In this document: positions 14,862 to 30,814 of the stretch, piece by piece
How the letters are laid out: every line of letters begins with the position of its first letter
How positions within the stretch are numbered: the first letter of the stretch is position 1
Origin: a virus
Taxonomy: Duplodnaviria; Caudoviricetes
Length of the DNA stretch: 64,000 bases
Direction: 5' to 3' (one strand)
Virus record (IMG/VR): IMGVR_UViG_3300037067_003400
Span: 64,001-128,000 of that record
Notes under the pieces: generated by a model
Databases searched by the model: none
Told to the model about the DNA's origin: nothing
The model's input: the letters and a program-made list of their open reading frames with translations, nothing else
Translations under genes and position numbers: made by a program

Positions 14862-15581
14862 TTGACACGGGAACAGCAGTATGCTATCGACAAACTTGTC
14901 GGTTCCCGAGATGAAGAGAGTCGTAGAGAAGTAGCTGAAAAGATATTTCCTACATTTGAGTATTTGATTTACAAAACTATAGATGCAGTGGGAGTTTCTA
15001 AAGATACAGCAGACTATGAAGACATAGTGCAGAATGCAAGAGTCTCTTTATATAGAGCTTTGATGGAGTATTCTCCAGACAAGGGCTCTCACTTTGCAAC
15101 ATATGCTATAACGGCTATACGTAACTCCATTACTAACTCTTTGGTTAGTGTATCTTGGAGTAAGTCAGGACAACGTAAGCAATGGAACTTGTCTAACTTG
15201 AGTCGTAAGTTTGCTATGGAGTATGGAAGAACTCCTAATAGAGAAGAACTCTCAGAATTGTTAGGTGTTCCAGTAGAAGAGTTTGATAACTATATAAAAG
15301 CATCAAGGTCTTCCAAGCCAACAGGTTGCATCAATGAAGACATAGTAGAAAGCATTGATATTATGGATTCTACTACGCCTATTGCATCTATAATTCTTAA
15401 GATAGTAAGTAATCTTGATGACGATTCTAAGTTTTGTATGTTAAAACATTTAGATGGCTATACTTATAGAGAAATTGCTGAGGAATTATGCATATCCTCT
15501 TCTCGTGTGGGTCAATTAATTATAACTGCACGAGAGAAGATAGCTGAAGCCTTAGCAGAACAAGGATATAATTATGACTGA
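14862..15581 (+). CDS. RNA polymerase sigma factor (sigma70 family, FliA/SigB-like)
   Basis: EDIVQ...YSPDKGSHFATYA (region 2), GRTPNREELSELLG (region 3), YTYREIAEELCISSSRVGQ (region 4 HTH). Confidence 0.9.
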   Translation: MTREQQYAIDKLVGSRDEESRREVAEKIFPTFEYLIYKTIDAVGVSKDTADYEDIVQNARVSLYRALMEYSPDKGSHFATYAITAIRNSITNSLVSVSWSKSGQRKQWNLSNLSRKFAMEYGRTPNREELSELLGVPVEEFDNYIKASRSSKPTGCINEDIVESIDIMDSTTPIASIILKIVSNLDDDSKFCMLKHLDGYTYREIAEELCISSSRVGQLIITAREKIAEALAEQGYNYD

Positions 15582-16170
15582 ATATCAGCAAGTAGCTGGA
15601 GAAATCTTTCAGACAGAAAAGGGATTTCTTCTAATGTTAGATAATGGTTTAGCTCTAATAGTTCATGATGAAAAGCAGATGGCGGGATACAAATTCTTCC
15701 CAGAATTTAAAGATGAGACTATTAGACAAGAAACTATTACTAATATGATAGGAGCAGAAGACTTAACTGCTGTTTTCTTGGAGTCTATACTTGAAGAACC
15801 AGTTGATAAGTTTGATCTTGAATATTTTATACACAATGCTCGACAGGTTGTTACCTTTCAGATTAGTCATTCTACTTTAGATTCCAGGGATGCTGGTACA
15901 GAGTACATGAGAGCTACTGAACTTGGTAACAAGGTAAGAGCAGGTGGTGATGTACATACTTTACTACGTGAGTATTTTACTGCTACTGCATTAGACAAAG
16001 ATATGTTATATAAATATTTGAAAAGGGAAGCTAGTGAAGAAGCTAGAGCTTTTATTGATGACGTTCTTACACCGATTGGTGAATATTTTGGAGGAAACGA
16101 TGAGCAAAGTGAAGATACTGAGGAAGAGAAGACTGGGAACTCAGACCCCGAACCAGCAGCAGTTAGTTGA
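15574..16170 (+). CDS. hypothetical protein
   Basis: 198 aa ORF coupled to the sigma gene and overlapping the JAB gene by 71 nt. Confidence 0.55.
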   Translation: MTEYQQVAGEIFQTEKGFLLMLDNGLALIVHDEKQMAGYKFFPEFKDETIRQETITNMIGAEDLTAVFLESILEEPVDKFDLEYFIHNARQVVTFQISHSTLDSRDAGTEYMRATELGNKVRAGGDVHTLLREYFTATALDKDMLYKYLKREASEEARAFIDDVLTPIGEYFGGNDEQSEDTEEEKTGNSDPEPAAVS

Positions 16171-16927
16171 TGGATTTGGCAAGCCTATAGTGCAGACTTG
16201 GCAGAATCCTGCTAACAAGGGTGCAACTACTCCTGCTGTAGAGGTGGTTAGAACTCCGGTTAGCTTGTCTCCAGAACTGGGGAAACTTTTCCGTCAGCAT
16301 TCTTTTGATACTAAAGTAACTTTTGATGCTACTAAAGTAATGGTTCACATATCTCCTATTGCGATGGAGAAAATGTACTATTATGTAGGTATAGTAGCAG
16401 ACGAAGTCAGCTGGATGGGTAAAGTTACAAGGCTAAATAATACAGAGTTTCTTATTGAAGATGTCTATTTAATAGATCAAGATGTGCACCCTACTACTAC
16501 CGAGTTTACTAACGAAGGTAATACAGAATTCCTTACTAAGCTTGTAGAAGAAGAAGGTATAGAAGCTGTCAATAAGATTAGGCTTTGGGGGCATAGCCAT
16601 GTTAAGATGGGAACTACTGCCAGCACAGTAGATGACGAACAGATGAAAGAATTTAGTCAAGTTAATGACGACTATATGATTAGACTTATAGCTAATAAGG
16701 ATGGTAGGATAGAGCTTACCATATATGACTGGAACAGAAATCTGAAGATCGCTGACGCTCCATGGTCTCTCTTTGTGTGTATGGATGATGAACTTCAGAA
16801 TGCTATTAAAGAGGAAGTAAAGGAAAAAGTATTCGTTAAAAAGAATACTGTCACTACCTATGCTAACCAGGGTTACAATGGCAGAAACTATGCTGGTGGT
16901 GGTGCATGGAACCATGAAGGAGTATAA
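16100..16927 (+). CDS. JAB/JAMM (MPN+) metallo-isopeptidase
   Basis: N-terminal Glu (DEVSWMG) and WGHSHVKMGTTASTVDD = HxH-x7-S-x2-D JAMM motif; ATG 16100 follows GGAGG. Confidence 0.88.
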   Translation: MSKVKILRKRRLGTQTPNQQQLVDGFGKPIVQTWQNPANKGATTPAVEVVRTPVSLSPELGKLFRQHSFDTKVTFDATKVMVHISPIAMEKMYYYVGIVADEVSWMGKVTRLNNTEFLIEDVYLIDQDVHPTTTEFTNEGNTEFLTKLVEEEGIEAVNKIRLWGHSHVKMGTTASTVDDEQMKEFSQVNDDYMIRLIANKDGRIELTIYDWNRNLKIADAPWSLFVCMDDELQNAIKEEVKEKVFVKKNTVTTYANQGYNGRNYAGGGAWNHEGV

Positions 16928-16929
16928 CT

Positions 16930-17604
16930 ATGAATTATAGCAGACAGCTTGCTGTTATAGATCCTAACGACTTAAAAGATTTAAGAGTTGATCTTATAGG
17001 AGCTGGTGCTGTTGGTTCCTATATCTCTTGGGAGTTGGCTAAGATTGGAACTAAGAACATGCACTTGTGGGATGCTGATATAGTGCAGGATCACAATGTG
17101 TGTAATCAAATGTTCAATCTTGAACATGTTAATAAACCGAAGGTTCTGGCTGTAGCTGAAATGCTGAAAGCTGGAACTGGTATGATGCCTTCTATGCATG
17201 CTCAAATGGTAGAAGGTAAGACTGAATTTGGTGACTATGTATTTCTTGCTGTGGATTCAATGAAAGTAAGAAAAGATATATGGGAACATAGCATCAAAAA
17301 GAATAGGCATATCTCTCGTATGATAGAAGTACGTATGGGTGCTTCTGATATGCGAGTATATACGATTAATCCAAACCTACCTGAAGACATAGTAGGTTGG
17401 GAAGATAGCCTCTACTCAGATGATGAAGCAGAGGTTTCTTTGTGTGGGAGCTCCGTGTCCATTGCTCCAACAGCCATGCTGACTGCTTCCTTAGCAGTAT
17501 GGCAGTTAATTAGATCCGTTAAGGGAGACCTCAACATAGAGTCCGAGGTGATCATGTCCACAAGGGCAATGGGACTTTATACGAACAAGTTCGTACCAAG
17601 ATAA
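16930..17604 (+). CDS. ThiF/MoeB-family E1-like adenylating enzyme
   Basis: YSRQ, IGAGAVGS, WDADIVQDHNVCNQ, KPKV, LAVDS; candidate catalytic Cys in SLCG; no Zn-binding CxxC pairs. Confidence 0.92.
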   Translation: MNYSRQLAVIDPNDLKDLRVDLIGAGAVGSYISWELAKIGTKNMHLWDADIVQDHNVCNQMFNLEHVNKPKVLAVAEMLKAGTGMMPSMHAQMVEGKTEFGDYVFLAVDSMKVRKDIWEHSIKKNRHISRMIEVRMGASDMRVYTINPNLPEDIVGWEDSLYSDDEAEVSLCGSSVSIAPTAMLTASLAVWQLIRSVKGDLNIESEVIMSTRAMGLYTNKFVPR

Positions 17605-17633
17605 AAATAAATTCTATAGGAGGAATCAATCTA

Positions 17634-17837
17634 ATGGTACATATTATTACAGTAGGTGGAGTTACAAGTTCAGTTCGCTATAGCGCAGGGGCAACTATTG
17701 CCAAGATTCTCGAAGCAGCTGGCATCAATGCTGATGGCTTTGAGGTCAAGTACAATGGTGTAAGAGCCACATCTCTTGATCAGACCGTTTCCGAAGACGG
17801 CACAATTCTCTTAACTCGCAGAGTTAAAGGAGCCTAA
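17634..17837 (+). CDS. ubiquitin-like beta-grasp protein ending in KG-A
   Basis: 67 aa; ATIAKILEAAG, VKYNG, DGTILLTRRVKGA; strong AGGAGG RBS; follows E1. Confidence 0.85.
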   Translation: MVHIITVGGVTSSVRYSAGATIAKILEAAGINADGFEVKYNGVRATSLDQTVSEDGTILLTRRVKGA

Positions 17838-17878
17838 TAAAAACTAACTACAAGATGGACACTTTGTAGGAGCTTACG

Positions 17879-17911
17879 GGAGAGGGTCTTTGACTCTCTC
17901 CTGGTTTTATT
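17879..17911 (+). terminator. hairpin plus T-rich tail between Ubl and E2 genes
   Basis: GGAGAGGGTC-TTT-GACTCTCTCC followed by TGGTTTTATT. Confidence 0.55.
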
Positions 17912-17949
17912 ATAGGTTACACATGTAACCTTTGTTGGAGGATAAAACA

Positions 17950-19635
17950 ATGGATTATGTATTTGTAGTTACAGAAAATCCAGATACTATACTTGGAAAC
18001 TATGGTTCCACTGCGTTTACTGATGATGGGCGGTCGGGAGTTCTTATCCCAGAGGACAGAGTTATAGAATATCTTAATGATATACATGTTCCAGCTGCAA
18101 GAGCAAGTAGATCTAATACAATTTATGCGGGTATAACAGAGCTTACTATTGCGCCTGAAGCTATAACTACTGATGGAGCTACTCTTGAAAGAGAAGAAGT
18201 TATAGCAGATCCAGAACGTGATGAAGATGATGAAGAAGATGAGGATCCTGAAACTGATGAGCCTATAGAAGAAGCTCATGTTGAAGCACCCACTCCTGCA
18301 CGTAATGCTGATGGTGGAAGAATGGCTATACCAATTATAACTGAGGCTGCGCCTGATCCAGATGATGGTGTTAAGCTTAATCCAGAAGATTTTAAAAAGA
18401 GATTTGGTTTTGCTTTAGAAACATGTAAAGGAAATTCTACTGAGTTTCATAGGTTACCTTCTAAAGCTGATAGTACTGGGAATAATATAACCCACGAAAT
18501 TTATATTCCTTGGATGCATAGTGCACAGATTCTTTCTCAAATTATTCCTATTGTAAATGCGTCAGGAAGAGGAGTATCTGTAACCTGGAGCGGTATGGAT
18601 CCTGTTAATCAGTACCCAAGAAATTGGGATAACATGGCTCCACATAATCGTAATATATCTAAAGTTATATTTTATGGTGGTCCTGTTACTGCTGGGCAAG
18701 AGTTTATAACTATAGAGGGTAAGAGCTATGATTTTAAAACTAATGTAGCTAAACTTACAGGGGTTGCTGCTCCAAGATTTGAGTTAGTAACAGATGACAA
18801 GCATGCAGTTATTGCAGCTATAGATACTCAGACGGATAACTTCCATGTCTTTTTAAATTACGGAAGTGCTAGTCAACCATATCCTATGGGGCTTATAAGA
18901 TATATATTTGATGCTTATAAAATATATATATATGCTAAGTTTGGTGTTATGGAAGGTGGCTCTGATCTTGATAGGCTAACTAATAATATCAGAGTAGGTT
19001 TAAAGAAGAAGTTTGTAGTACAGCAAACACAGAAAGCTCAAGCAGAAAGAGATGCATTTATTCATATGCAGGCTCATCAAGAAGAGTATTACAGAGCTAT
19101 TCAAGATTATCAAAAAGCTAAAGACGATCTTAATAAGATATCTGTTGATGAAGAAACATATCTAGGTAAAGTTCTTAATAATATATTAGCTATTAAATCT
19201 GTTATGGGTGTTGAAGATATATCTGTTTCTGGGGATATTATTACCGTCCGAACGAGTATGATGTTCTGTTTAGATCCAAGAGTTAATATAGTTAGAAGGA
19301 TTGGAGTCTTTGATATTCTCATAGATAAGAACACTTCTAAGATATCCTTTAGAAATAATACCTTGTTAGTGAAAGGGTATAACTCTGATTGGTGTCATGC
19401 TCCCCACATATTTGGTAATGGGTCAGCTTGTCTTGGAGATCTTCAGAATTTAGTTCCCAGTTTACTTACATCAGATGATTATGTAAGTGTAGTAGCTATG
19501 TGTATAGACTTCTTGCAGAGTGCTGCTGTATTTGATTCTGCTGGAAAGTATGTTCATAGGTGGCCGAAGGCTACTGATAAAGAAGCTGAACAATTTAGAA
19601 AAGAGTATCCTGTTATAGCCAGAGCTAAAATATAA
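17950..19635 (+). CDS. large protein with acidic N-terminus, coiled coil and C-terminal E2/UBC-like domain
   Basis: C-terminal HAPHIFGNGSACLGDL matches the E2 HPH/HPN-x(5-7)-CL pattern and is followed by two helices; operon context. Confidence 0.75.
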   Translation: MDYVFVVTENPDTILGNYGSTAFTDDGRSGVLIPEDRVIEYLNDIHVPAARASRSNTIYAGITELTIAPEAITTDGATLEREEVIADPERDEDDEEDEDPETDEPIEEAHVEAPTPARNADGGRMAIPIITEAAPDPDDGVKLNPEDFKKRFGFALETCKGNSTEFHRLPSKADSTGNNITHEIYIPWMHSAQILSQIIPIVNASGRGVSVTWSGMDPVNQYPRNWDNMAPHNRNISKVIFYGGPVTAGQEFITIEGKSYDFKTNVAKLTGVAAPRFELVTDDKHAVIAAIDTQTDNFHVFLNYGSASQPYPMGLIRYIFDAYKIYIYAKFGVMEGGSDLDRLTNNIRVGLKKKFVVQQTQKAQAERDAFIHMQAHQEEYYRAIQDYQKAKDDLNKISVDEETYLGKVLNNILAIKSVMGVEDISVSGDIITVRTSMMFCLDPRVNIVRRIGVFDILIDKNTSKISFRNNTLLVKGYNSDWCHAPHIFGNGSACLGDLQNLVPSLLTSDDYVSVVAMCIDFLQSAAVFDSAGKYVHRWPKATDKEAEQFRKEYPVIARAKI

Positions 19636-19677: not shown

Positions 19678-19728
19678 GGGTTGTTACCGAATATTAAAGT
19701 GAACATTATTGTTAATAGGAGTATTAAA

Positions 19729-20376
19729 ATGGAAAATAAAATATTAAACACAAAAATTCATGTATTAAACTCATCCACAAAGGGGAAACCTGGAGTTGGT
19801 AAGATCTTAGACTTTGCTGACATGCTTATATTTAATCCGAAAGTTGGCGATGCTCTAAAAGATGACAATGGAAATGTAAATGATGGGAAGGTTGTTATCA
19901 GTGCTACTGAGTTTAATACAGCTAATCCTGAAAGCAACAAATCGCTCCAGTATTTTCTCGATGTGTCTAAGGCACGATTACTTGCTGAGACTGTTATAAA
20001 TAACTCTTATATCAGCAAGGCTGGAGATGCTGAGAAGATAGAAAACGGGGATAAGATTACTCTCCTTGATTTATGGGGTGGTGGGAAGAATAACTATACT
20101 AAGTATAGTTGTGATTTTCTTTCTCGTCATCTAAAGGTAGAGTATGTAGAAAGAGATAAGAATAAAACTCCGTTAGGTATTGGGCCCTCTGTTGTAATAT
20201 CAATAGAGTATTTCCCTGGTAAGAAGTCTGAGAACGGAGCTATCATTGCTGATGGAGAACGTCTCGATTCTGTTGTGTTCATGAAGAGTACAATGGAAAT
20301 GAAAGAAGCTATGCTTGCAGTAAGAGAACATCTACTCGCTTGTCGAGTTAGAGCTCTTGTATCTGGAGCATTTTAA
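19729..20376 (+). CDS. hypothetical protein heading the RNA cluster
   Basis: AGGAG RBS before ATG 19729; beta-rich with a C-terminal helix. Confidence 0.6.
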   Translation: MENKILNTKIHVLNSSTKGKPGVGKILDFADMLIFNPKVGDALKDDNGNVNDGKVVISATEFNTANPESNKSLQYFLDVSKARLLAETVINNSYISKAGDAEKIENGDKITLLDLWGGGKNNYTKYSCDFLSRHLKVEYVERDKNKTPLGIGPSVVISIEYFPGKKSENGAIIADGERLDSVVFMKSTMEMKEAMLAVREHLLACRVRALVSGAF

Positions 20377-20890: not shown

Positions 20891-20950
20891 GGGGAGATAG
20901 TTCAGTGGTAGAACTTCTAGAGAACGTGGGTTCAATCCCTACTCTCCCCG
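20891..20950 (+). ncRNA. tRNA-like element B with anticodon arm reduced to about 10 nt
   Basis: GGGGAGA/TCTCCCC acceptor; D arm GTTC-AGTGGTA-GAAC; T arm GTGGG-TTCAATC-CCTAC; only TTCTAGAGAAC between the D and T arms. Confidence 0.8.
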
Positions 20951-20956
20951 TCGTAT

Positions 20957-21033
20957 GGGAAGATAGTTTAATTGGTAAAGCACTCGGGAATGAACACCTG
21001 AGGATGGCTGTTCGAGGCAGTCTCTTCCCACCA
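20957..21033 (+). tRNA. tRNA-like element C with non-canonical 8-nt anticodon loop (undetermined, possibly Phe-derived)
   Basis: GGGAAGA/TCTTCCC + ACCA; D loop AATTGGTA; CTCGGG-AATGAACA-CCTGAG; T arm GGCTG-TTCGAGG-CAGTC. Confidence 0.7.
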
Positions 21034-21055
21034 GTAGAATAAAAGTTTTTAAGAT

Positions 21056-21131
21056 GTGTCGATAGCTCAAATAGTAGAGCACCAGGTTGTGGCCCTGGAG
21101 GCTATGGAAGCATACTCCATTCGATACCCCA
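21056..21131 (+). tRNA. tRNA-His(GTG), atypical elbow
   Basis: GTGTCGA/TCGATAC, C73 + CCA; CCAGG-TTGTGGC-CCTGG; T loop AGCATAC; D loop lacks GG; T rather than G at -1. Confidence 0.8.
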
Positions 21132-21402: not shown

Positions 21403-22998
21403 ATGAAATACACAGATCATTTTGGATTTAAAAAGACCCCACAGTCTGAGCCTATACCATTTTCTAATATGGTAGCTAACTCAGCTGGGGGTTTTTCTTT
21501 CGCCATAGATAAGTGGGTATCTCTTCGGAGATTTCTTATTCTTGGTGCGGAAGGTGGAACGTATTACATTTCAGAGAAGAAGCTTACAGTTGATAATGCT
21601 AAGTCAGCTTTAGCTTGCTTAACTGAAGATGGTAAGAAAACTTTAGATATGGTAAAGGAAGTAAGTGTAGGTGGTAAGGCTCCAAAGAATACTCCTGCTA
21701 TATTTGTTTTAGCTATGGCTATGTCACTACCTGGTGATCAGTTCATAGCTATTAGACAATACGCCGGAGAAATATTCCCAGAAGTTTGTAGAATTCCTAC
21801 ACATGTATTTACTTTTGCTGAATATATGGAAGCTTTCAGAGGTTGGGGTAGGGTAGCTAAGAGATCAGTTGCTAACTGGTATATTAACAAGACTCCCAAT
21901 GATTTACTTTATCATGCTACTAAGTATAAACAAAGAGACGGTTGGAGTAATAGAGACCTTCTTAGATTATCACATCCTAAGTTTACTGGAGAAGCTAATG
22001 AAATTGCTAAGTATATAGTCTCTGGGAAGATTCCTTCCGACGACTGTTCCCTTAGTGAGCATATCCAGATTTTAGAAGAACTTGAGAACTATGACATATC
22101 TAAAGTAGCTGATAGCATAGTTAGGTTTAACCTTCCAAGAGAAGTAATACCTACTAAGTATTTGAAGGAGAAAGTTATTTGGGATGCCTTACTTTATAAT
22201 GGTATGCCAATGACTGCTATGCTTAGGAATCTTGGTAACATGAGTTCTTATGGTGTCTTTGATACAGAGGCTAATGTTACACGTGTATTAGAAGCATTCT
22301 CAAATAGAGAGAGCTTAAAGAAAGCTCGTATACATCCTATATCTATACTTGCTGCCCTAATGACGTATAGCGAAGGTTCTGGAATAAGAGGTAGTAATAC
22401 CTGGGTGCCTAATGAAGATATAGTTGAAGTATTGAATGAAGCTTTCTATAAAAGCTTTGATTTTGTAGAATCTTCTAATAAAAATATTATGATAGGTATG
22501 GATATTTCTGCATCTATGACTTGGAGCGATGTGTCTGGTATTCCAAACCTTACCCCAAGAGTAGCAGCTGCAGCAATGGCTATGGTTACTGCAAAGACTG
22601 AGCCTAATACTTACGTTAGAGCTTTTAGTGATGAGCTTATCCCTATTACTATGCTTCCTAATGATAAGATTGAGTATATGACTGCAAGGATAGAGAAAAT
22701 GCGTGCTGGTAGTACTGATTGCTCTTTACCAATGTTAACAGCCAAAGTTGAGAAGTTAGATGTAGATGCTTTTGTTGTGTACACAGACTCAGAAACTTGG
22801 TGCGGTAGAACTCACCCAGTACAGGCATTGGAACAGTATGAGAAGTTCATAGGTCATCCTGCTAAGCTTATAGTAGTTGGTATGGTAGCTAATGAATTTA
22901 GTATAGCAGACTCAAGTAAGGCTAACATGTTAGACGTAGTAGGCTTTGATACCTCTGCTCCAAGTGTTATCTCGGAGTTTATAGCAGGAAAGATATAA
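21403..22998 (+). CDS. rsr: Ro60/Rsr TROVE-domain RNA-binding protein with vWA domain
   Basis: NSAGG, LRRFLILGAEGGTYY, KYKQRDGWSNRDLLRLSHPK, MPMTAMLRNLG, RIHP, MIDAS DISASM, TDCSLPM, YTDSET, LDVVGFD. Confidence 0.96.
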   Translation: MKYTDHFGFKKTPQSEPIPFSNMVANSAGGFSFAIDKWVSLRRFLILGAEGGTYYISEKKLTVDNAKSALACLTEDGKKTLDMVKEVSVGGKAPKNTPAIFVLAMAMSLPGDQFIAIRQYAGEIFPEVCRIPTHVFTFAEYMEAFRGWGRVAKRSVANWYINKTPNDLLYHATKYKQRDGWSNRDLLRLSHPKFTGEANEIAKYIVSGKIPSDDCSLSEHIQILEELENYDISKVADSIVRFNLPREVIPTKYLKEKVIWDALLYNGMPMTAMLRNLGNMSSYGVFDTEANVTRVLEAFSNRESLKKARIHPISILAALMTYSEGSGIRGSNTWVPNEDIVEVLNEAFYKSFDFVESSNKNIMIGMDISASMTWSDVSGIPNLTPRVAAAAMAMVTAKTEPNTYVRAFSDELIPITMLPNDKIEYMTARIEKMRAGSTDCSLPMLTAKVEKLDVDAFVVYTDSETWCGRTHPVQALEQYEKFIGHPAKLIVVGMVANEFSIADSSKANMLDVVGFDTSAPSVISEFIAGKI

Positions 22999-23638: not shown

Positions 23639-26600
23639 ATGAGTAATTCATACACCTTTGATGAGGTGTTTGAGGCAACCAAGAATTATTTTGGTGGTGA
23701 TGATTTAGCAGCAGCTACCTTCTTTAAGTATGTTCTTTGTGATGATGAAGATGTATACTATGAGAAGACACCTGAAGATGCTATTAATAGATATGCAAAA
23801 GAGATTCATAGAATAGATTGTAAATATCCAAAGCCTATAGGCTATGGTGACATGATTTATTTGTTAGACCATTATAAAAGAGTTATACTGGGTGGCTCCC
23901 CTATGGCAGGGATAGGTAACGACTTTTCAAGGATGTCGTTATCGAATTGTGTAGTGGCTCCTTCTCCAGAAGATAATATCTCTTCTATATTTGATGTAGC
24001 TAAGATGTTAGCAATCTTCTTTAGTAGAAGAATGGGTGCAGGTTTAAACTTATCTACATTACGCCCGGCAGGTGATGCTGTTAGTAATGCAGCTAAGACT
24101 ACTACTGGAGCCTGGAGCTTTGCAAGTCTATATAGTTTTGTCTGTAGATTGATAGGACAAAATAATAGACGTGGTGCCCTTATGTTAACTATGTTAGTCA
24201 GCCACCCAGATATAGAAAAGTTTATTACAATGAAGCGTAACCTTACTGATGTAACTGGTGCCAATATATCAGTTCTTATAACTGATGACTTTATGACAGC
24301 AGTAGAAGAGGATGGTGATTGGGATTTAGTATTCAATGGTAAGGTGCGTAGAACAGTAAAGGCTGTTGATATATGGAACTTGATTATAGAGAATGCTACT
24401 GCTGCTGCTGAGCCTGGTGTATTGTTCTGGGATACATATAAAAAATACAATCCTTTAAATGAATATCCTGGCTTTAAGATGATTTCTACCAATCCTTGTC
24501 AGCCTGGGTTTGCATACTTACAAGGAGCAGAGAATCTTATTACTATGTATGATGTGAAAGTTGGGGATGAAATATGGAGTCCTATCCCTGGTACTAAAAA
24601 TGCTGGGCAGTTTTCAAAAGTGGTAAGGAAGGTTTCTTCTGGTATAAAGGATGTCTATAGGTATAGAACTACCTTTGGGGAATTTATAGGTACTGAAGAC
24701 CATAAGGTTTATGATGGTGGTAGTAAAGTAAAAGCTAAAGATGCTATGTGTTTAGACAGAGCTGTCTTTGGTGGAACAGTGTTTAATAATCATCAGTTGT
24801 TGAATCCTGAGTATATAATGTATGGATTATTGTTAGGAGATGGCTCTGTTCATAAGGCTTCTAACAACAAAGTCATACTATATATAGGTGATGAAGACCA
24901 GGACTACTTCAATGATTTAGATATAAAACACTTAATAGTTGGTAAGACAGGCATAGGTGAAAAAGCGTATGCTGTTGATTCTAATATCTCTCCAGAGGTA
25001 TTAGTTAGAACTTATGACAGAAGTATACCTAAAGAATTTATGGTTGCTGATAAAGTTAAGGTTCGTAGTTTACTAAGAGGTATCTACTCAGCTAATGGTT
25101 CTATTATTAATGGTAAAGGGAAACGTATATCTCTTAAGTCAGCAAGTTTAGATATGATAACTGATGTTCAGTTATTGTTATCTTCTCTTGGTATTAGTTC
25201 TTATTATACTACTAATAAAGAATCTACAGTTCTGTTTCCTAATGGTGAGTACGTATGTAAACAGTCTTATGATTTAAATATAACTACTGATATGAATAAG
25301 TTCTTTGCTTTGATAGGATTTATCCAACACTATAAGATGTGTGCATTAGTAGATGTTATAGAAAATAAAAAGAAAGCTTCTAAGATTAGAGGAACGCAAG
25401 AGCGTATAGTTTCTATAGAGTATCTTGGTAAGCATGAGGTATTTGATATAACAGTAGACTCTGATTATCATACCTATCTTACGGGTGGAAGCGTTGTAGG
25501 AAACTGTGGTGAGCTCGGGCTTTCTGGAAATGCAGGCTGTATGCTCTCGTCTATTAACCTGAGAGGGTTTGTATTGAATCCTTATACTCCAGAAGCTACA
25601 TTTGATGCTGAGGGTTTTGAGAGTGCAGTACGAAAAACCATTAGGATGATGGATGATATGATAGACCTTGAGCTTGAGGCTTTGGATAAAGTAATAGCTA
25701 AAGCTGATACTCAAGATGTAAAGGATATCTTTAAGTTAGTTCAAGATGTATTTGTAAAGGGTAGACGTATAGGCTTAGGTACTACTGCTTTAGCTGATTG
25801 TCTTATTGCTCTGGGAATCTCTTACGGCTCTGAAGATTCAAAGGATACAATAGATTATATCTATTCGATGTTAGAGTACTTTGCTTATGATGAGAGTGTT
25901 AACTTAGCTATAGAGCGTGGACCATTCCCTATCTTTGATTGGAATACTGAAAAGGATAACCTATTTATAGTTGGGCTACCTTTAGAACTACGAGAAAAGA
26001 TTAAGAAGTATGGTAGAAGACATGGTGCATTGTTAACTAATGCTCCTGTTGGTAGTGGAAGTATCTTAGGGCAGTGTTCCTCTGGGATAGAACCTGTGTT
26101 TGATTTATACTACACACGTAGGAAGAAACTCACAGGAGATATAACATCAGAGAGAGTAGATTATACTGATGCCAATGGAGATAAGTGGCAGTTCTTTACA
26201 GTGGTGCATCCTGAAGTTATGTGTTACATGCGTAACGAGGGTATAGCTACTGCTGGATTAGATAGAATAGCTACAGAGTCTCTACTCATAGATGATTTAC
26301 CTGCTGATTTTATAGAGGCGGTAAAAGAACTCCCAGATTATTTTGTTACTTCTTCTGGTATAAAGTGGGAAGATAGAGTAGAGATACAAGCTATCATAAC
26401 TTCACACTTAGACCACAATTGTAGCAGTACTGTCAATTTACCTGAGGGAACTACTCCTGAAGTAGTTAGTGGTATATATAAGACAGCCTGGAAGTCTGGA
26501 TGTAAAGGTATTACCGTTTATGTACAAGGTAGTAGAGATGGTGTGTTGGTTTCAGCAAGTCCTTGTGCCAAGACTTTAGATGAATGGTATGATAGACCTG

Positions 26601-27133
26601 AAGCTTTATTCTGTGAGGTTCATTATATAGAAGCTACTTTTGATAAGGTAAGAAAGCCTTATGCAGTTATAGTATCCTTTAAAGATGATATACCTTTTGA
26701 AATATTTGGTGGTGAATACTCAGCGGAAGAGGTGTCTTCCCAGTTTCCTCCGTATGTAAATGATAAAGTAATGAGTGGATTGATTACTAAGAAAGAGCTG
26801 GCTGCTGGAGCTAAGTATACATTAACCATAGAGGGTAATGGAGTTATACAGAACTTAGGTGGAGAGTTCCATTACGGACAGACAGCTACTATCAATAGGG
26901 TTATGTCTCTTTGCTTGCGTAGTAGACCAGATAACCTTATTCATTTGATAAAGCAGATTTCTAAAGACAGAAACTATGCTGGATATATGAAAGCTGTAGG
27001 TAGAGTACTAAAGAAATATATCCCAGATGGTACAAGTTCAAGATTAACCTGTCCTCAGTGTGGGCAGAAGACCTTACGATATGAGGGTGGTTGCACAGTG
27101 TGTCAGTCGTGTGGATATAGTGGATGTAGCTAA
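23639..27133 (+). CDS. nrdJ: class II (B12-dependent) ribonucleotide reductase with intein
   Basis: SLSNC, RRGALM, HPDIEKFI, GANISV, AEPG, TNP|intein|CGE, RRIGLG, APVGS...SSGIEP, SSTVNLP, GCKGITVY, C-terminal Zn ribbon; no NrdB in the window. Confidence 0.93.
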   Translation: MSNSYTFDEVFEATKNYFGGDDLAAATFFKYVLCDDEDVYYEKTPEDAINRYAKEIHRIDCKYPKPIGYGDMIYLLDHYKRVILGGSPMAGIGNDFSRMSLSNCVVAPSPEDNISSIFDVAKMLAIFFSRRMGAGLNLSTLRPAGDAVSNAAKTTTGAWSFASLYSFVCRLIGQNNRRGALMLTMLVSHPDIEKFITMKRNLTDVTGANISVLITDDFMTAVEEDGDWDLVFNGKVRRTVKAVDIWNLIIENATAAAEPGVLFWDTYKKYNPLNEYPGFKMISTNPCQPGFAYLQGAENLITMYDVKVGDEIWSPIPGTKNAGQFSKVVRKVSSGIKDVYRYRTTFGEFIGTEDHKVYDGGSKVKAKDAMCLDRAVFGGTVFNNHQLLNPEYIMYGLLLGDGSVHKASNNKVILYIGDEDQDYFNDLDIKHLIVGKTGIGEKAYAVDSNISPEVLVRTYDRSIPKEFMVADKVKVRSLLRGIYSANGSIINGKGKRISLKSASLDMITDVQLLLSSLGISSYYTTNKESTVLFPNGEYVCKQSYDLNITTDMNKFFALIGFIQHYKMCALVDVIENKKKASKIRGTQERIVSIEYLGKHEVFDITVDSDYHTYLTGGSVVGNCGELGLSGNAGCMLSSINLRGFVLNPYTPEATFDAEGFESAVRKTIRMMDDMIDLELEALDKVIAKADTQDVKDIFKLVQDVFVKGRRIGLGTTALADCLIALGISYGSEDSKDTIDYIYSMLEYFAYDESVNLAIERGPFPIFDWNTEKDNLFIVGLPLELREKIKKYGRRHGALLTNAPVGSGSILGQCSSGIEPVFDLYYTRRKKLTGDITSERVDYTDANGDKWQFFTVVHPEVMCYMRNEGIATAGLDRIATESLLIDDLPADFIEAVKELPDYFVTSSGIKWEDRVEIQAIITSHLDHNCSSTVNLPEGTTPEVVSGIYKTAWKSGCKGITVYVQGSRDGVLVSASPCAKTLDEWYDRPEALFCEVHYIEATFDKVRKPYAVIVSFKDDIPFEIFGGEYSAEEVSSQFPPYVNDKVMSGLITKKELAAGAKYTLTIEGNGVIQNLGGEFHYGQTATINRVMSLCLRSRPDNLIHLIKQISKDRNYAGYMKAVGRVLKKYIPDGTSSRLTCPQCGQKTLRYEGGCTVCQSCGYSGCS
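24497..25504 (+). mobile_element. intein (336 aa) with LAGLIDADG homing endonuclease in nrdJ
   Basis: Begins CQPGF after TNP; TEDH block B; GLLLGDG and LRGIYSANG; VFDITV...VVGN|C. Confidence 0.93.
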
Positions 27134-27998: not shown

Positions 27999-28716
27999 GG
28001 AAAAGAATCAGTTAGCAATAGATACTATAATGGGTAAGTCTACAGACATACGCTTCACAGATAGGTTTCGTCATATAGATAGACCAGGGAGTGGTGAGCT
28101 TAGCATATACGCTTACGAGTTTTATCCAACCTTAGGAGTGTACTTTGCTTGGGTGTATGTTAATCATAGTTCAATATGCTGTGACGAAAGGATATTAGTA
28201 GGACCATTACCTAAGACACTTGAGTTATCATATCCAGTCTTTAGAAGTTTTGTTCCAGTAAGGCCTGGACATGGTATAGCTGGTATAGAAGTTAACGAAA
28301 CTACATTTGGAAAGTGGTATATTAAAGAGACTACTTCTATTATTAATATTAGGTATTGGATAGATGATTACGGCGGTGTACAGTTTAATTATAATACCAG
28401 AGCTACTCCATACCTTAATATAGGATGGGATACTGTTACAGCAGACGATATTCCTACCATATTTAAAAAAATGGAGAGAGATTTTAGTAAGTCTCAATCT
28501 TTCTTAAGTAATTTCTTGCATATGTTTCCTATGAAAGATGTGCTTACTGTAGCATCCCCCTTTAATGAGTTGCCTAATAGGTGTACCAGCTGTAAGCATT
28601 GTGCTGTCTGTAAAGACTGGGGACAATATAAGGATAGCTCTTATATGAGAGAGCTTAATAAGATGTGTGCCTGTTACTGTGTGATGTTTGAGGATAGCCA
28701 TGAAGATATTTTCTAA
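27982..28716 (+). CDS. hypothetical protein with C-terminal CxxCxxCxxC cluster, paralog 2
   Basis: YEFYPTLG, VGPLPKT, RCTSCKHCAVCKDW. Confidence 0.65.
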   Translation: MFGVSKEKNQLAIDTIMGKSTDIRFTDRFRHIDRPGSGELSIYAYEFYPTLGVYFAWVYVNHSSICCDERILVGPLPKTLELSYPVFRSFVPVRPGHGIAGIEVNETTFGKWYIKETTSIINIRYWIDDYGGVQFNYNTRATPYLNIGWDTVTADDIPTIFKKMERDFSKSQSFLSNFLHMFPMKDVLTVASPFNELPNRCTSCKHCAVCKDWGQYKDSSYMRELNKMCACYCVMFEDSHEDIF

Positions 28717-30814
28717 GAAGAAGCCTCCTTATGTAAAGCCTAAAGCTATGCTGGTTGTAGGTGGAGCTGGATTTATAGGTTCTCATTTTGTAGAAGCGGT
28801 AGTTAATAATACTTCTGATGTAGATACTTCTGGAGTAGAGGTTGCTGTAGTAGATGCTTTAACTTATGCTGGGAATAAAGATTATCTGAGCTCCGTAGAA
28901 GATAAGATAAAGCTTTGGGTAGAAAATATATCTAATGATGATTTCTTTAATTCTATGCGTACTATATTTCCTATGTATGATACTATTGTTAACTTTGCTG
29001 CTGAGAGTCATGTGGATAGATCTTTTGAAAACTACAGAACCTTTATAGATACTAATATAAAAGGAGAGGCTGCTATTTTAAAAGCTATATATAAGGCTAA
29101 GAATCTTAGACACTTATATGTATCTTGTTATGATACTGCTACTCGTGCTCTAACTAAAGACGGGTTGAAATATTATGACGAGTTAAAAATTGGGGATGTT
29201 GTATTTACATTAAATGCTTCTGATAATTTGGAAGAACAGCCTATAGAAAACATTATAATTCAAGACTATTCAGGAGATATGATTAGTCTATCTAATAGAC
29301 GTGTAGATATATTAGTTACACCTAATCATAGGATGTATGATAGAAACCTAAATGTTTTTGAAGCATGTGATTTGTTAAGAGGTTCTAAGTATAAATCTTA
29401 TGAATTACCATATCCTGTAGTAGGTATTGGTTGTAAAGATAGTATAATAATAGATGGTAAAGAAGTAGATTTGTGTGATTTGTTTTATTTATCTGGTATT
29501 TTTATAGGGGATGGTTTTTTAGCTTATCAGGAAAAAGAACTTGTAAATAAAAGTGGTCTAAGTAGACAAGGTTTTTTGAGCAGAAGAAATTCTAAAGGGC
29601 AGTTTGTTTCAGGTAGAACGGGAGATGTTTCTACTACTACCTCTAAGGGTTGGCGCATTTTTATTGACGTACCAGAAAATGATAAATGTAGAAAACGTTT
29701 GGAAGATACTTTAAGTAGATTGGATATAAATTATTCTATACAAAAGGGTAAGTCTGGAGAGCATATATACTTCACTTCCGAAGTGTGGTCTGATTATTTT
29801 AAACAATTTGGTGAGTATGCACAAAACAAAACTATACCAGAATGGATGCTACAATATGATCCACAGTATCTTATGTGTTTGTTTAAAGGACTTATGGATT
29901 CAGACGGCCATGTCATAGATCATAGTTGCTTTATGTATTCTACTGTTTCTATTAAACTTACAGAAAAGATATGCGAGCTTGGTTTAAAAGTAGGGTACTA
30001 TCCGAAGGTATATGATAGATATTGTGAATCATATATAGATGGAAGGAAAATTTCTGGTAGTAGCAAACAAATATTATTTGGTATGCGCCCTAGAACTATT
30101 AGGTACGATAAAATATGTACCAAAGAATATAATGGTAAGGTTTGGTGCATTAAGGTAAAGAATAAAAACTTCTTAACTGAAAGAAATGGTTGTTTTTCTT
30201 TTTCTGGTAATACTGATGAAATTTATGGGACTCAATCTTATGTCCCATCAGTAGAAACTACTCCAGCTGATCCTACTAATATTTATTCTATAACTAAGGT
30301 AGCTGCTGAGCAGTTAGTTGCCTACTACCATAAGAATTATGGAGTTAATACAATTGTAACAAGAGGCTCTAACACTTATGGAACCAGACAATATCCAGAG
30401 AAAGTTATTCCCTGGTTTATAAATAACTTACTAAAAGGAATTAAGTGCCCTGTATATGGTAAGGGTGAAGCCAGAAGATACTATATGCATGTGGATGATC
30501 ACGTTAATGGTATACTACATGCTCTTTACTATGGTGAAGCTGGTGAAGCTTACAATGTAGGAGCTACTAATAGCGAGTATAGTACTGTAGAACTTGCTAC
30601 TATATTAATTAGTGTCATAAAGAAGATTAGTATAGAGGAAGCTAAAGACTCTCTAAGTAACTATATAGAATTCATAGAAGATAGAGTTGCTAATGACAGG
30701 CGGTACATGATGAATTCCCAGAAACTAACAGAACTATCAGGATGGTATCCTAAGAGAACTTTAGTTGATGGTATAGAAGAAGTTATTGATTACTATAGAG
30801 AGAGGATTATTTAA
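28700..30814 (+). CDS. rmlB: dTDP-glucose 4,6-dehydratase with intein
   Basis: GGAGFIGSHF, DALTYAGN, NFAAESHVDRS, VS|intein|TDEIYG, YSITK, NTYGTRQYPEKVIP. Confidence 0.92.
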   Translation: MKIFSKKKPPYVKPKAMLVVGGAGFIGSHFVEAVVNNTSDVDTSGVEVAVVDALTYAGNKDYLSSVEDKIKLWVENISNDDFFNSMRTIFPMYDTIVNFAAESHVDRSFENYRTFIDTNIKGEAAILKAIYKAKNLRHLYVSCYDTATRALTKDGLKYYDELKIGDVVFTLNASDNLEEQPIENIIIQDYSGDMISLSNRRVDILVTPNHRMYDRNLNVFEACDLLRGSKYKSYELPYPVVGIGCKDSIIIDGKEVDLCDLFYLSGIFIGDGFLAYQEKELVNKSGLSRQGFLSRRNSKGQFVSGRTGDVSTTTSKGWRIFIDVPENDKCRKRLEDTLSRLDINYSIQKGKSGEHIYFTSEVWSDYFKQFGEYAQNKTIPEWMLQYDPQYLMCLFKGLMDSDGHVIDHSCFMYSTVSIKLTEKICELGLKVGYYPKVYDRYCESYIDGRKISGSSKQILFGMRPRTIRYDKICTKEYNGKVWCIKVKNKNFLTERNGCFSFSGNTDEIYGTQSYVPSVETTPADPTNIYSITKVAAEQLVAYYHKNYGVNTIVTRGSNTYGTRQYPEKVIPWFINNLLKGIKCPVYGKGEARRYYMHVDDHVNGILHALYYGEAGEAYNVGATNSEYSTVELATILISVIKKISIEEAKDSLSNYIEFIEDRVANDRRYMMNSQKLTELSGWYPKRTLVDGIEEVIDYYRERII
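29126..30211 (+). mobile_element. intein (362 aa) with LAGLIDADG endonuclease in rmlB
   Basis: CYDTATRALTKDG start; VTPNHRM block B; GIFIGDG and GLMDSDG; YNGKVWCIKV...FSGN|T. Confidence 0.93.

What the first reader, a model, noticed from the sequence alone, without database searches (positions are those of the whole stretch)
16100..19635. Complete phage-encoded ubiquitin-like conjugation cassette (JAB - E1 - Ubl - E2)
Seen: four consecutive genes encode a JAMM protease (HSH-x7-S-x2-D), a ThiF-type E1, a 67-aa beta-grasp protein ending RRVKG-A, and a large protein ending in an E2-like HAPH...CLG domain. No thiamine, molybdopterin or sulfur-transfer genes are in the window. Established: bacterial Bil/Bub and CBASS Cap2/Cap3 systems use E1/E2/JAB enzymes, with JAB trimming the modifier to expose a C-terminal Gly; the characterised Bil and CBASS examples are host anti-phage systems. 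Inference: the phage runs its own protein-tagging pathway, in which JAB removes the terminal Ala and the Ubl is conjugated to host or phage proteins. It may counter host defences or remodel host machinery.
Basis: partly seen in the sequence, partly recalled or inferred. Interest (0 to 1): 0.9.

Follow-up and report, generated by a model that had tools for sequence, protein, structure and literature searches.

The report
Phage-encoded ubiquitin-like protein-tagging cassette
A 211-kb uncultured tailed phage carries a complete four-gene kit for ubiquitin-style protein tagging (trimming protease, activating enzyme, small tag, carrier enzyme). The kit belongs to a large family that no paper or domain library I checked describes. 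That family is shared by big phages, tiny CPR bacteria and Melainabacteria, and what it tags is unknown.

Summary
Four co-oriented genes, three of them checked and preceded by GGAGGA ribosome sites, encode:
- a JAMM/MPN+ peptidase (16100-16927);
- a minimal 224-aa E1 (16930-17604);
- a 67-aa SAMP2-like beta-grasp tag ending Gly-Ala (17634-17837);
- a 561-aa protein (17950-19635) whose C-terminal 160 residues are predicted with high confidence to adopt the E2/UBC fold, with a P-H-x7-C motif in register with the E2 HPN...Cys active site.

The strongest evidence is gene linkage. The E2-like domain has about 1,090 cluster representatives and no Pfam, PHROG, PADLOC or NCBIfam model. In every locus I fetched with enough flank, it sits beside this JAB, E1 and Ubl: 10 phage contigs and 27 MAG contigs.

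So this is a new, sequence-distinct variant of the Bil/CBASS kind of prokaryotic ubiquitin-like conjugation system. It is not phage-only, because it also lies among housekeeping genes in Saccharibacteria, Paceibacterota and Melainabacteria.

Conjugation, the targets and the purpose (counter-defence, phage competition, proteolysis) are inferred, not shown. I found no paper describing it. Earlier AI notes of this scan report the same family in at least eight other genomes.

The parts
16100..16927 (+). JAMM/MPN+ (JAB) metallopeptidase, 275 aa. Predicted to trim the Ubl after Gly66 and to remove conjugates.
   Evidence: GGAGGA lies 4 nt before ATG 16100. The profile hits Rpn11 at 1.1e-6, plus BRCC36, CSN5 and AMSH. 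E102 (nt 16403), H165, H167, S175 and D178 are conserved at 97% or more in 38 homologues. The gene overlaps the upstream ORF 15574-16170 by 71 nt.
16930..17604 (+). Minimal E1-like adenylating enzyme, 224 aa, with candidate catalytic Cys172 (nt 17443).
   Evidence: Pfam ThiF 5e-17. The profile hits the Uba1 active adenylation domain, UBA5 and ThiF at about 1e-16. The ATP-site residues and C172 are invariant in 35 homologues. It has only two Cys, so no 4-Cys zinc site. It starts 2 nt after the JAB stop codon.
17634..17837 (+). Ubiquitin-like beta-grasp tag, 67 aa, ending K-G66-A67. It is a pro-form that needs removal of Ala67.
   Evidence: The profile hits P. furiosus SAMP2 at 1.5-2.1e-10 and H. 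volcanii SAMP2 at 8.6e-5. The terminal Gly is invariant and is followed by 1-2 residues or by another Ubl repeat across the family, mostly G-N. A GGAGGA ribosome site is present.
17877..17903 (+). Terminator-like hairpin (12-bp stem, then a U-run) between the Ubl and the E2-like gene.
   Evidence: intergenic fold -38.3 kcal/mol, z -5.6. Its function was not tested. It may raise the amount of tag relative to the carrier enzyme.
17950..19014 (+). N-terminal about 355 aa of the E2-like protein. It has a small N-terminal unit, an acidic low-complexity stretch and an unassigned alpha/beta region. I propose it is the target-selecting part.
   Evidence: No homologue was found, even in the nearest phage L002, where the alignment starts only at residue 286 of the ORF counted from TTG 17932. 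There is no Pfam, PHROG or NCBIfam hit. The single-sequence AF2 model is unusable, pLDDT 36.
19015..19143 (+). Long helix (coiled-coil-like) preceding the E2 fold.
   Evidence: AF2 model m1aafe6c2d686, helix at model residues 2-44. The whole-protein family profile matched only coiled-coil proteins in the PDB over this part.
19150..19635 (+). E2/UBC-like domain with predicted active site Pro485-His486...Cys494 (motif nt 19396-19437).

Best explanation
The four genes form a self-contained ubiquitin-like conjugation cascade that the phage expresses in the infected cell.

Proposed steps (all inferred):
1. The JAB peptidase cuts the pro-Ubl after Gly66 and removes Ala67.
2. The minimal E1, probably a homodimer like ThiF/MoeB, uses ATP to adenylate Gly66. 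It then takes the tag as a thioester on Cys172 in its crossover loop.
3. The tag passes to Cys494 of the E2-like domain.
4. The E2-like protein transfers it to a lysine of a target. No E3 gene is present. The E2-like protein has a fast-evolving 355-aa N-terminal region and a coiled-coil helix, so it most likely acts as an E2/E3 hybrid: the N-terminus picks the target and the helix makes it oligomeric.
5. JAB can also take the tag off again.

What is shown: domain identities, active-site conservation, and strict four-gene linkage across phages and bacteria.

What is inferred: every chemical step, the direction of transfer, the role of the N-terminus and the targets. The purpose in the phage is open. 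I rank the options as manipulation of host or phage proteins during infection (including counter-defence), then exclusion of competing phages, then marking proteins for proteolysis.
For: (1) All four domain calls are supported.
- JAB: profile hits Rpn11 at 1.1e-6 with the full JAMM motif.
- E1: Pfam ThiF 5e-17, with an invariant ATP site and Cys172.
- Ubl: profile hits SAMP2 at 2e-10.
- E2-like domain: AF2 pLDDT 92. E2 enzymes top the Foldseek list and both VIA-align lists. The domain profile ranks UBE2A/B first, with P-H-V-x3-G-x-x-C-L laid on H-P-N-V-x3-G-x-I-C-L.

(2) Linkage.
- All 5 loci found from the E1 have JAB next door, and 4 of them have the E2-like gene.
- All 6 viral loci found from the E2-like domain alone (5 distinct) have JAB, E1 and Ubl.
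- 27 of 31 MAG loci have JAB and E1 beside the E2-like gene. The other four stop at a contig or locus end.

(3) Marks of a conjugated tag rather than a cofactor carrier.
- The tag ends Gly plus 1-2 extra residues.
- In relatives it occurs as 2-3 tandem repeats, each ending R/K-G-N.
- Loci with two E2-like genes keep the P-H...C-x-G motif in one copy and often lose the Cys or His in the other, as in E2/UEV pairs.

(4) BilA likewise ends Gly-Ala, is trimmed by its JAB, and is conjugated through the E1 and E2 cysteines (PMC10557695).

(5) The genes look expressed as a unit. GGAGGA sites precede the JAB, Ubl and E2-like starts, and the E1 start follows the JAB stop codon by 2 nt.
Against: There is no biochemical evidence of any kind.
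- The E1 is no larger than sulfur-carrier E1s, and it lacks any known E2-docking domain (UFD, CYS domain, zinc site).
- The tag's nearest solved relative, SAMP2, works without an E2 and doubles as a sulfur carrier.
- A terminator-like hairpin separates the Ubl from the E2-like gene.
- One related phage locus (L006) has Ubl, JAB and E1 but no detectable E2-like domain.
- No E3, no target and no RNA data are available.
Confidence: 0.68

Rival explanations
1. Sulfur-carrier system. The E1 adenylates the trimmed Ubl, which becomes a thiocarboxylate and donates sulfur to a cofactor, a nucleoside or a tRNA, as in ThiS/ThiF, MoaD/MoeB, TtuB/TtuC, QbsE/QbsC/QbsD or CysO/Mec. The E2-like protein would be an accessory.
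For: The E1 has ThiF/MoeB size, and ThiF is among its best profile hits (9e-16). The weak NCBIfam matches are to ThiF and ThiS. SAMP2, the tag's nearest solved relative, also carries sulfur for tRNA thiolation (established knowledge). JAMM trimming of a C-terminal extension is known in the QbsE/QbsD sulfur pathway (my own knowledge, not checked here). The phage invests in RNA biology: Ro60, tRNA-like RNAs and an RNA ligase.
Against: The whole 211-kb genome has no PP-loop sulfurtransferase (PF01171) and no rhodanese (PF00581). All ThiF, MoeB and UbaA NCBIfam scores are far below their cut-offs, for example 49.6 against 159 bits. This reading does not explain the obligate partner with a conserved E2-type Cys/His site, nor the poly-Ubl precursors.
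Confidence: 0.07
2. SAMP-like conjugation without E2 catalysis. The E1 alone conjugates the Ubl, as UbaA does with SAMPs. The E2-like protein would be a non-catalytic UEV/RWD-type adaptor or a substrate.
For: The tag resembles SAMP2. The UBC fold has many non-catalytic members: RWD domains of Knl1 appear among the fold hits. Some paralogues in this family have lost the Cys. L006 lacks a detectable E2-like gene. A hairpin separates the Ubl from the E2-like gene.
Against: In the copy that is always present, Pro, His, Gly and Cys of the active-site loop are 96-100% conserved over 158 domains. The window's single copy is of this intact type. Such conservation is not expected for an adaptor.
Confidence: 0.1
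3. Same chemistry, different purpose. The cassette is a Bil-like defence module that the phage carries to tag and disable the virions of competing phages (superinfection exclusion), not to act on the host.
For: The only characterised four-gene Ubl/E2/JAB/E1 operons (Bil) tag a phage structural protein and protect the cell (PMC10557695). The E2-like N-termini vary strongly between related phages, as expected in an arms race. One phage carries two cassettes, and several carry 2-3 E2-like genes.
Against: No PADLOC model fits beyond weak Cap2-type E1 matches. In four sampled cellular loci the neighbours are housekeeping genes (rpoB, recG, trigger factor, transketolase, ClpB/ClpC-type ATPase), not defence islands. 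Here the cassette sits in the replication/early region, after an SSB and a sigma factor.
Confidence: 0.15

Closest known systems
Bil systems (BilABCD, Types I and II; operon classes 6d/6c of Iyer, Burroughs and Aravind 2006; PMC10557695, PMC1779556)
   Same: The same four parts are present: Ubl, E2, JAB peptidase and E1. The Ubl has a conserved Gly followed by extra residues (E. aridi BilA ends Gly97-Ala98, this one Gly66-Ala67), which the JAB must remove. Relatives have multi-domain Ubls. There is no E3.
   Different: No Bil-type PADLOC model was listed for the Ubl, E2-like or JAB proteins, and no Bil chain appeared in the PDB searches. The E1 here is one 224-aa adenylation domain, with no inactive domain, no CYS domain and no zinc site. 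BilB's catalytic His lies after the Cys (Cys138/His151), whereas here it lies 8 residues before, as in classical E2s. The E2-like protein carries a 400-aa N-terminal extension. Gene order differs. Bil is a host defence found in defence islands.
Type II CBASS Cap2 (E2-E1 fusion) and Cap3 (JAB)
   Same: It uses E1, E2 and JAB chemistry. Cap2 is the best single-sequence PDB and PADLOC match of the E1 (1.8e-5; 3e-13).
   Different: The match covers only the Rossmann segment (residues 12-92). By profile, Cap2 (6.6e-11) ranks below Uba1, UBA5, ThiF and MoeB. The NCBIfam 6A-MBL cap2_3 model scores 41 bits against a 320-bit cut-off. There is no CD-NTase gene and no E2-E1 fusion, and a free Ubl is present.
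Archaeal sampylation (SAMP2 / UbaA / JAMM1)
   Same: The tag is most like SAMP2 (2e-10, including the chain solved with PfJAMM1, 5lda). It pairs a small E1 with a JAMM peptidase.
   Different: Sampylation has no E2. SAMPs end in Gly-Gly without an extension (my own knowledge). The UbaA NCBIfam model scores 18 bits against a 450-bit cut-off. The host is a phage or a bacterium, not an archaeon.
Eukaryotic and Caldiarchaeum-type E2 enzymes (UBC fold, HPN...Cys)
   Same: The predicted fold and the active-site loop agree: P-H-[VI]-x3-G-x-[AP]-C-[LFM]-G against H-P-N-[IV]-x3-G-x-[IV]-C-L-D. Relatives have inactive UEV-like paralogues.
   Different: Pfam UQ_con and the Prok-E2 families do not match. 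His replaces the Asn of HPN. The sheet is predicted to have six strands rather than four. No RING or HECT E3 is present.
Bub pathways (PMC11601596)
   Same: It is a diverged bacterial E1/E2/Ubl operon. BubCD is a distant E1 hit (1.6e-9).
   Different: Bub works through oxyesters, its E1 lacks a catalytic Cys, and its protease is a Ser-His enzyme. Here both Cys are invariant and the protease is a JAMM.
E1-like 'ThiF' genes of cultured phages (crAss001 gp76, Flavobacterium FpV4 gp50, Xanthomonas PhiXhv-15)
   Same: They are the nearest relatives of the E1 in GenBank phages (25-31% identity). In crAss001 the gene lies next to a metalloprotease-domain gene.
   Different: Their flanks hold no E2-like domain and no BLAST match to the window's Ubl. 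The small ORF after the PhiXhv-15 E1 does not end in Gly. They are probably a different system.

Membership tests
JAMM/MPN+ metallopeptidases | E...HxH-x7-S-x2-D zinc site within an MPN fold | tested here: met
   The motif is present (E102, H165, H167, S175, D178) and conserved at 97% or more in 38 homologues. The profile hits Rpn11 at 1.1e-6. Pfam Prok-JAB matches 3 of 6 homologues.
E1-like (ThiF/MoeB/Uba) adenylating enzymes | Rossmann GxGxxG ATP site with the conserved Arg, Asp and Lys, and a Cys in the crossover loop | tested here: met
   Pfam ThiF scores 62.3 bits against a 28.1-bit cut-off. R5, G24, G26, G29, D48, K71, D109, R135 and C172 are invariant in 35 sequences.
ThiF, MoeB, UbaA or PRTRC-ThiF equivalogs (NCBIfam) | Score above the curated equivalog cut-off | tested here: not met
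   ThiF scores 49.6 against 159 bits, MoeB 27 against 266, UbaA 18.3 against 450, and PRTRC_ThiF 24.3 against 144.75.
E2/UBC superfamily | UBC fold: helix, beta-meander, active-site loop, C-terminal helices | tested here: met
E2/UBC superfamily | Catalytic Cys preceded by the HPN-type loop | tested here: met
   Pro485-His486-x7-Cys494. HMMER aligns it on P-N-x7-Cys of UBE2A. It is 96-100% conserved in 158 domains. His stands in place of Asn.
E2/UBC superfamily | Recognised by Pfam UQ_con or the Prok-E2_A to Prok-E2_E models | tested here: not met
   The protein and ten homologues have no Pfam hit at E 0.1 or 0.01.
Ubiquitin-like beta-grasp modifiers | Beta-grasp domain with a C-terminal Gly available for adenylation | tested here: met
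   The profile hits SAMP2 at 2e-10 over the full length. Gly66 is invariant and is followed by one residue, so processing is needed. No structure was predicted.
Bil (BilABCD) | Four genes: Ubl, E2, JAB and E1 | tested here: met
   This covers gene composition only.
Bil (BilABCD) | Sequence membership of the E2 (CEHH/BilB type, His after Cys) and a multidomain E1 (IAD+AAD+CYS, zinc site) | tested here: not met
   The E2-like protein and the Ubl have no PADLOC hit. I did not verify that PADLOC holds Bil models. The His lies before the Cys. The E1 is 224 aa with two Cys. The Bil features are taken from PMC10557695.
Type II CBASS (Cap2/Cap3) | E2-E1 fusion next to a CD-NTase and an effector | tested here: not met
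   The E1 and E2-like genes are separate. The Pfam/PADLOC scans of the neighbours found no CD-NTase. The PADLOC E1-E2 hits cover only residues 12-95.
Bub | E1 without a catalytic Cys, oxyester intermediates, Ser-His protease | tested here: not met
   C172 and C494 are invariant and the protease is a JAMM. The chemistry itself cannot be tested here.
Any conjugation system | Formation of E1~Ubl and E2~Ubl thioesters and of isopeptide conjugates | not testable with these tools
   This needs biochemistry.

The most novel reading that the evidence does not exclude
Large phages run their own ubiquitin-style tagging of host or rival proteins. The carrier enzyme is an E2/E3 hybrid whose hypervariable N-terminus chooses the victim. 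This phage-diversified system would also be the source of the shallow, cross-phylum set of copies now fixed in the chromosomes of CPR bacteria and Melainabacteria. It would be the first virus-encoded complete E1-E2-Ubl-DUB pathway in the prokaryotic world, and a new branch of ubiquitin-like signalling with its own E2 family.
Probability: 0.35. Interest if true: 0.9.

Novelty: new variant of a known kind. Interest (0 to 1): 0.7.

Why it matters
In the papers I read, complete prokaryotic Ubl-E1-E2-JAB conjugation systems (Bil, and the related E1/E2/JAB machinery of type II CBASS) have been characterised as host defences against phages. Here the same logic sits on the virus side, in a family with its own E2 clade of about 1,090 cluster representatives that no Pfam, PHROG, PADLOC or NCBIfam model matched in my scans.

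If it is active, three things follow.
- Phages could rewrite host or rival proteomes by covalent tagging.
- The variable N-termini of the E2-like proteins would be a ready-made catalogue of targeting domains.
- The chromosomal copies in CPR bacteria and Melainabacteria would point to a housekeeping ubiquitin-like pathway in bacteria that lack other known tagging systems.

The E2-like domain keeps the classical His-before-Cys active-site layout. It is therefore also relevant to how eukaryote-type E2s arose.

Tried and rejected
- Complex prediction (E1 + Ubl 1-66 + E2-like domain) returned 'no answer' (score 0.00, controls not run). It is not used as evidence either way.
- A single-sequence AF2 model of the E2-like N-terminus (residues 1-354) has pLDDT 36 and is unusable. 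The Atlas feature search of residues 140-345 gave no usable hit, and phmmer against all fetched relatives found nothing. The N-terminal fold therefore stays unknown.
- The whole-protein family profile A2 against the PDB gave only coiled-coil noise. A domain-only profile (A7) was needed.
- blastn and tblastn of the cassette or the E2-like domain against 50,697 GenBank phages and 72,556 plasmids found no match. No cultured phage carrying the E2-like gene was found.
- The window's E1 alone, and the alignments A1 and A2, found nothing or could not be used by the search for related loci. Smaller alignments worked. A back-translated motif scan of the viral contigs gave only 2 loci.
- The word-based homologue search found only the protein itself. 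The exhaustive HMMER search was needed.
- The look-up of sequencing runs listed no RNA holder.
- The cultured-phage 'ThiF' loci (crAss001, FpV4, PhiXhv-15) were examined and set aside as a different context.
- Terminase_6C, HK97 capsid and sheath Pfam models found nothing in the genome, while Terminase_6N and Baseplate_J did.
- No Bil or Cap2 E2 chains were listed among the fold matches. That shows nothing about their relatedness.

Full report
**Setting.** The window is bases 64001-128000 of a 210,951-bp IMG/VR virus record, judged 98% complete.
- The record is 33-40% G+C and almost all genes lie on the + strand.
- The window carries a replication set: family A DNA polymerase, UvrD-type helicase, clamp and clamp loader, a RecA-like protein, an RNR with a LAGLIDADG insert, an RNA ligase, Ro60 and tRNAs.
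- The same contig holds a large terminase (Terminase_6N, 36.4 bits) and Baseplate_J (E 2e-31), so it is a tailed phage.
- The DNA is found whole in one groundwater metagenome run and in part in a landfill run. The host is unknown.

**Observation.** GGAGGA ribosome sites precede ATG 16100 (JAB), ATG 17634 (Ubl) and ATG 17950 (E2-like), and the E1 ATG (16930) follows the JAB stop codon by two bases. The product is 561 aa. Residue numbers below use that start.

**JAB.** Alone the protein is barely recognisable: no Pfam hit, Rpn11 at E 0.06, PADLOC JAB at 0.018. A profile of it and five homologues from related phage loci hits Rpn11 at 1.1e-6, followed by BRCC36, CSN5 and AMSH. All of these are JAMM/MPN+ isopeptidases. 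Glu102, His165, His167, Ser175 and Asp178 are kept in at least 97% of 38 homologues.

**E1.**
- Pfam ThiF scores 5e-17.
- Over 35 homologues the arginine finger (R5), the GxGxxGS loop, D48/D50, K71, D109, R135 and Cys172 are invariant.
- The single sequence is nearest to Cap2 (1.8e-5). The family profile, however, is about equally distant from the Uba1 active adenylation domain, UBA5, UBA6, ThiF, MccB and MoeB (1e-16 to 1e-13), with Cap2 and BubCD further off.
- Every NCBIfam equivalog (ThiF, MoeB, UbaA, PRTRC-ThiF, 6A-MBL Cap2) scores far below its cut-off.
- The protein has 224 residues and only two cysteines. It therefore has neither the four-Cys zinc site of MoeB/ThiF/BilD nor any extra domain.

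**Ubl.** The 67-aa protein ends K-G-A-stop. A six-member profile matches Pyrococcus SAMP2 (1rws, and 5lda where it is bound to JAMM1) at about 2e-10 over its whole length, and Haloferax SAMP2 at 8.6e-5. Across 51 non-identical Ubl domains from related loci, all but one end in Gly followed by one more residue. That residue is nearly always Asn, and here it is Ala. After it comes a stop, one or two further residues, or a linker to the next repeat. Many relatives encode two or three tandem repeats. Such precursors need an endopeptidase, as polyubiquitin does.

**E2-like protein.** No Pfam, PHROG, PADLOC or NCBIfam model matches it. The word-based search found only the protein itself.
- *Family size.* The exhaustive HMMER search found 1,089 cluster representatives at E 1e-3 or better (425 at 1e-10 or better). 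All of the 149 listed hits besides the query's own entry match through the C-terminal 170 residues or so. The Atlas labels the nearest clusters as mostly viral hypothetical proteins.
- *Motif.* In 158 aligned domains Pro485, His486, Gly491, Cys494 and Gly496 are 95-100% conserved, along with an Asn, a D-x-x-G and a W-P further on.
- *Register.* A domain-only profile (54 sequences) ranks UBE2A/UBE2B first in the PDB. The scores are not significant (E 0.23-0.49). HMMER's alignment nevertheless lays the family's P-H-V-x3-G-x-a-C-l-g on H-P-N-V-Y-A-D-G-S-I-C-L-D, so Cys falls on the catalytic Cys. I could not inspect the structural superposition residue by residue.

**Linkage, the strongest argument.**
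- *Found from the E1.* Five IMG/VR loci with 33-50% identical E1s all have the JAB gene immediately upstream and a small Gly-ended ORF nearby. Four of them have one to three E2-like genes.
- *Found from the E2-like domain alone.* All six viral loci (five distinct, from contigs of 42-207 kb) have JAB, E1 and Ubl beside it. One phage has two cassettes.
- *In species-representative genomes.* Of 31 loci, 27 have JAB and E1 next to the E2-like gene and 26 have a detectable Ubl. The four exceptions end at a contig or locus edge.
- *Paralogues.* Where two E2-like genes lie in tandem (most of the Melainabacteria loci, two Gammaproteobacteria loci and one phage), one keeps the P-H...C-x-G motif. The other often has Arg, Gln, Tyr, Leu, Thr or Asn in place of His, and Phe, Ile, Leu, Gly, His or Val in place of Cys. 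This recalls E2/UEV pairs. The window has a single, intact-type copy.

**Distribution.** The cellular loci come from Saccharibacteria, Paceibacterota/Parcubacteria, Melainabacteria/Obscuribacterales, a Flavobacteriaceae MAG, Gammaproteobacteria and Thermoanaerobaculia. Some lie on contigs of 0.36-1.2 Mb. In four sampled loci the neighbours are rpoB, an ABC transporter, recG, malic enzyme, PilM, trigger factor, transketolase and a ClpB/ClpC-type ATPase. These are housekeeping genes, not prophage or defence-island genes.

In an E1 tree the phage sequences are deep and long-branched. Twenty-two of the 24 cellular sequences, from six phyla, form one shallow cluster nested among them. The window groups with two phages of 213-217 kb (96/83 support). 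The root is midpoint only, so the direction of transfer is not settled. No GenBank phage or PLSDB plasmid has the E2-like domain. The 'ThiF' genes of crAss001, FpV4 and PhiXhv phages are more distant relatives (25-31% identity) in another gene context.

**Mechanism.** The best reading is a thioester cascade. JAB exposes Gly66. The E1 adenylates it and carries it on Cys172. The tag moves to Cys494 of the E2-like domain and then to a target lysine, and JAB can reverse the modification.

There is no E3. The first 285 or so residues of the E2-like protein cannot be aligned even with the nearest phage, whose E1 is 50% identical. A long helix precedes the E2 fold. I therefore propose that the N-terminus selects targets and the helix oligomerises the enzyme. 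All of these steps are inference.

Bil gives direct precedent for three of them: Gly-Ala trimming by the JAB, dependence on the E1 and E2 cysteines, and E3-free conjugation (PMC10557695).

A 12-bp hairpin with a U-run lies between the Ubl and the E2-like gene. It may set their expression ratio or split the unit.

**Rivals.**
- *Sulfur carrier.* This is made unlikely by the obligate E2-like partner, the poly-Ubl forms, the sub-threshold ThiF/MoeB scores, and the absence of PP-loop and rhodanese genes in the genome. It is not excluded, because SAMP2 has both roles.
- *E2-independent, SAMP-like conjugation.* Here the UBC domain would be an adaptor. The near-invariance of the Cys/His loop argues against this.
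- *Purpose.* Host manipulation, exclusion of other phages and a link to proteolysis cannot be told apart with these data.

**Comparison and novelty.** By composition this is the Bil kind of system. By sequence and architecture it is none of Bil, Cap2/Cap3, Bub, PRTRC or sampylation. I found no paper describing a phage-encoded E1/E2/Ubl set or this E2 family. Two jumbo-phage surveys (PMC7824862, PMC13282480) do not mention one. An Asgard-virus preprint reports viral E1-like genes only. The search covers open-access text only.

After I had reached these conclusions, the scan's own notebook showed that earlier AI readers had reported the same family in at least eight other genomes, including phages, Saccharibacteria, other CPR bacteria and Melainabacteria. 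Those notes agree with mine but are not independent evidence.

**Verdict.** This is a new variant of a known kind, and the biochemistry and targets are entirely open.

Noticed in passing
window 17877-17903: A 12-bp G+C-rich hairpin followed by a U-run lies between the Ubl stop codon and the E2-like start codon. The intergenic fold has z -5.6. It may be an internal terminator or attenuator.
   Followed up: partly
L024-L048 (mostly Melainabacteria MAG loci, with two Gammaproteobacteria loci, L028 and L037), L012: Tandem pairs of E2-like genes occur in which one copy keeps P-H...C-x-G and the other has often lost the His, the Cys or both. These look like UEV-like inactive partners. Several of these genomes carry more than one cassette.
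   Followed up: partly
L014, L016, L023, L029, L032, L034, L039-L041, L044-L046, L048: These loci encode poly-Ubl precursors of two or three beta-grasp repeats. Each repeat ends R/K-G-N (G-A in L016). Gly-Asn is the family-wide tag end, whereas the window has Gly-Ala.
   Followed up: partly
L016 (IMG/VR contig of 188 kb): One phage locus carries two complete E2-like/JAB/E1 cassettes within 10 kb. In L014/L015 the JAB reading frame is split into two ORFs.
   Followed up: no
L006 3028-6645: An outlying phage locus has a Ubl (ending GG-RK), a 547-aa unknown protein, JAB and E1, but no detectable E2-like domain. The 547-aa protein may be a very diverged E2 or a replacement for one.
   Followed up: no
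L039 12616-15078; L002 6899-7201: A ClpB/ClpC-type AAA+ ATPase lies directly after the E1 in one Melainabacteria locus. A 100-aa ORF that looks GroES-like by eye lies between the Ubl and the E2-like gene in the nearest phage. These are hints of a proteostasis link, with too few cases to judge.
   Followed up: no
window 20891-21128 and 21403-22998: A Ro60 (TROVE + vWA) gene is preceded by a cluster of tRNA-like elements: three Rfam tRNA hits, one of which ARAGORN reads with a 4-base anticodon. It lies 1 kb downstream of the cassette. Other entries of this scan cover it.
   Followed up: no
window 23639-27133 and 28688-30814: The ribonucleotide reductase carries a LAGLIDADG homing-endonuclease insert and is intein-like. 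A 708-aa NAD-dependent epimerase/dehydratase has its Pfam match split into two distant stretches, which suggests a second insertion.
   Followed up: no
window 15574-16170 / 16100-16927: The JAB gene overlaps the 3' end of the upstream 198-aa ORF by 71 nt in another frame. That ORF and the downstream 231-aa ORF (19681-20376) have no homologue in any related locus and no family hit.
   Followed up: partly
L007 (crAss001 gp75-gp78), L009 (FpV4 gp49-gp52), L008 (PhiXhv-15): Cultured phages carry a more distant E1-like 'ThiF' gene in a conserved position beside large unknown proteins, one of them annotated as a metalloprotease. They have no E2-like gene and no Gly-ended Ubl. This may be a separate, unstudied phage E1 system.
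   Followed up: partly
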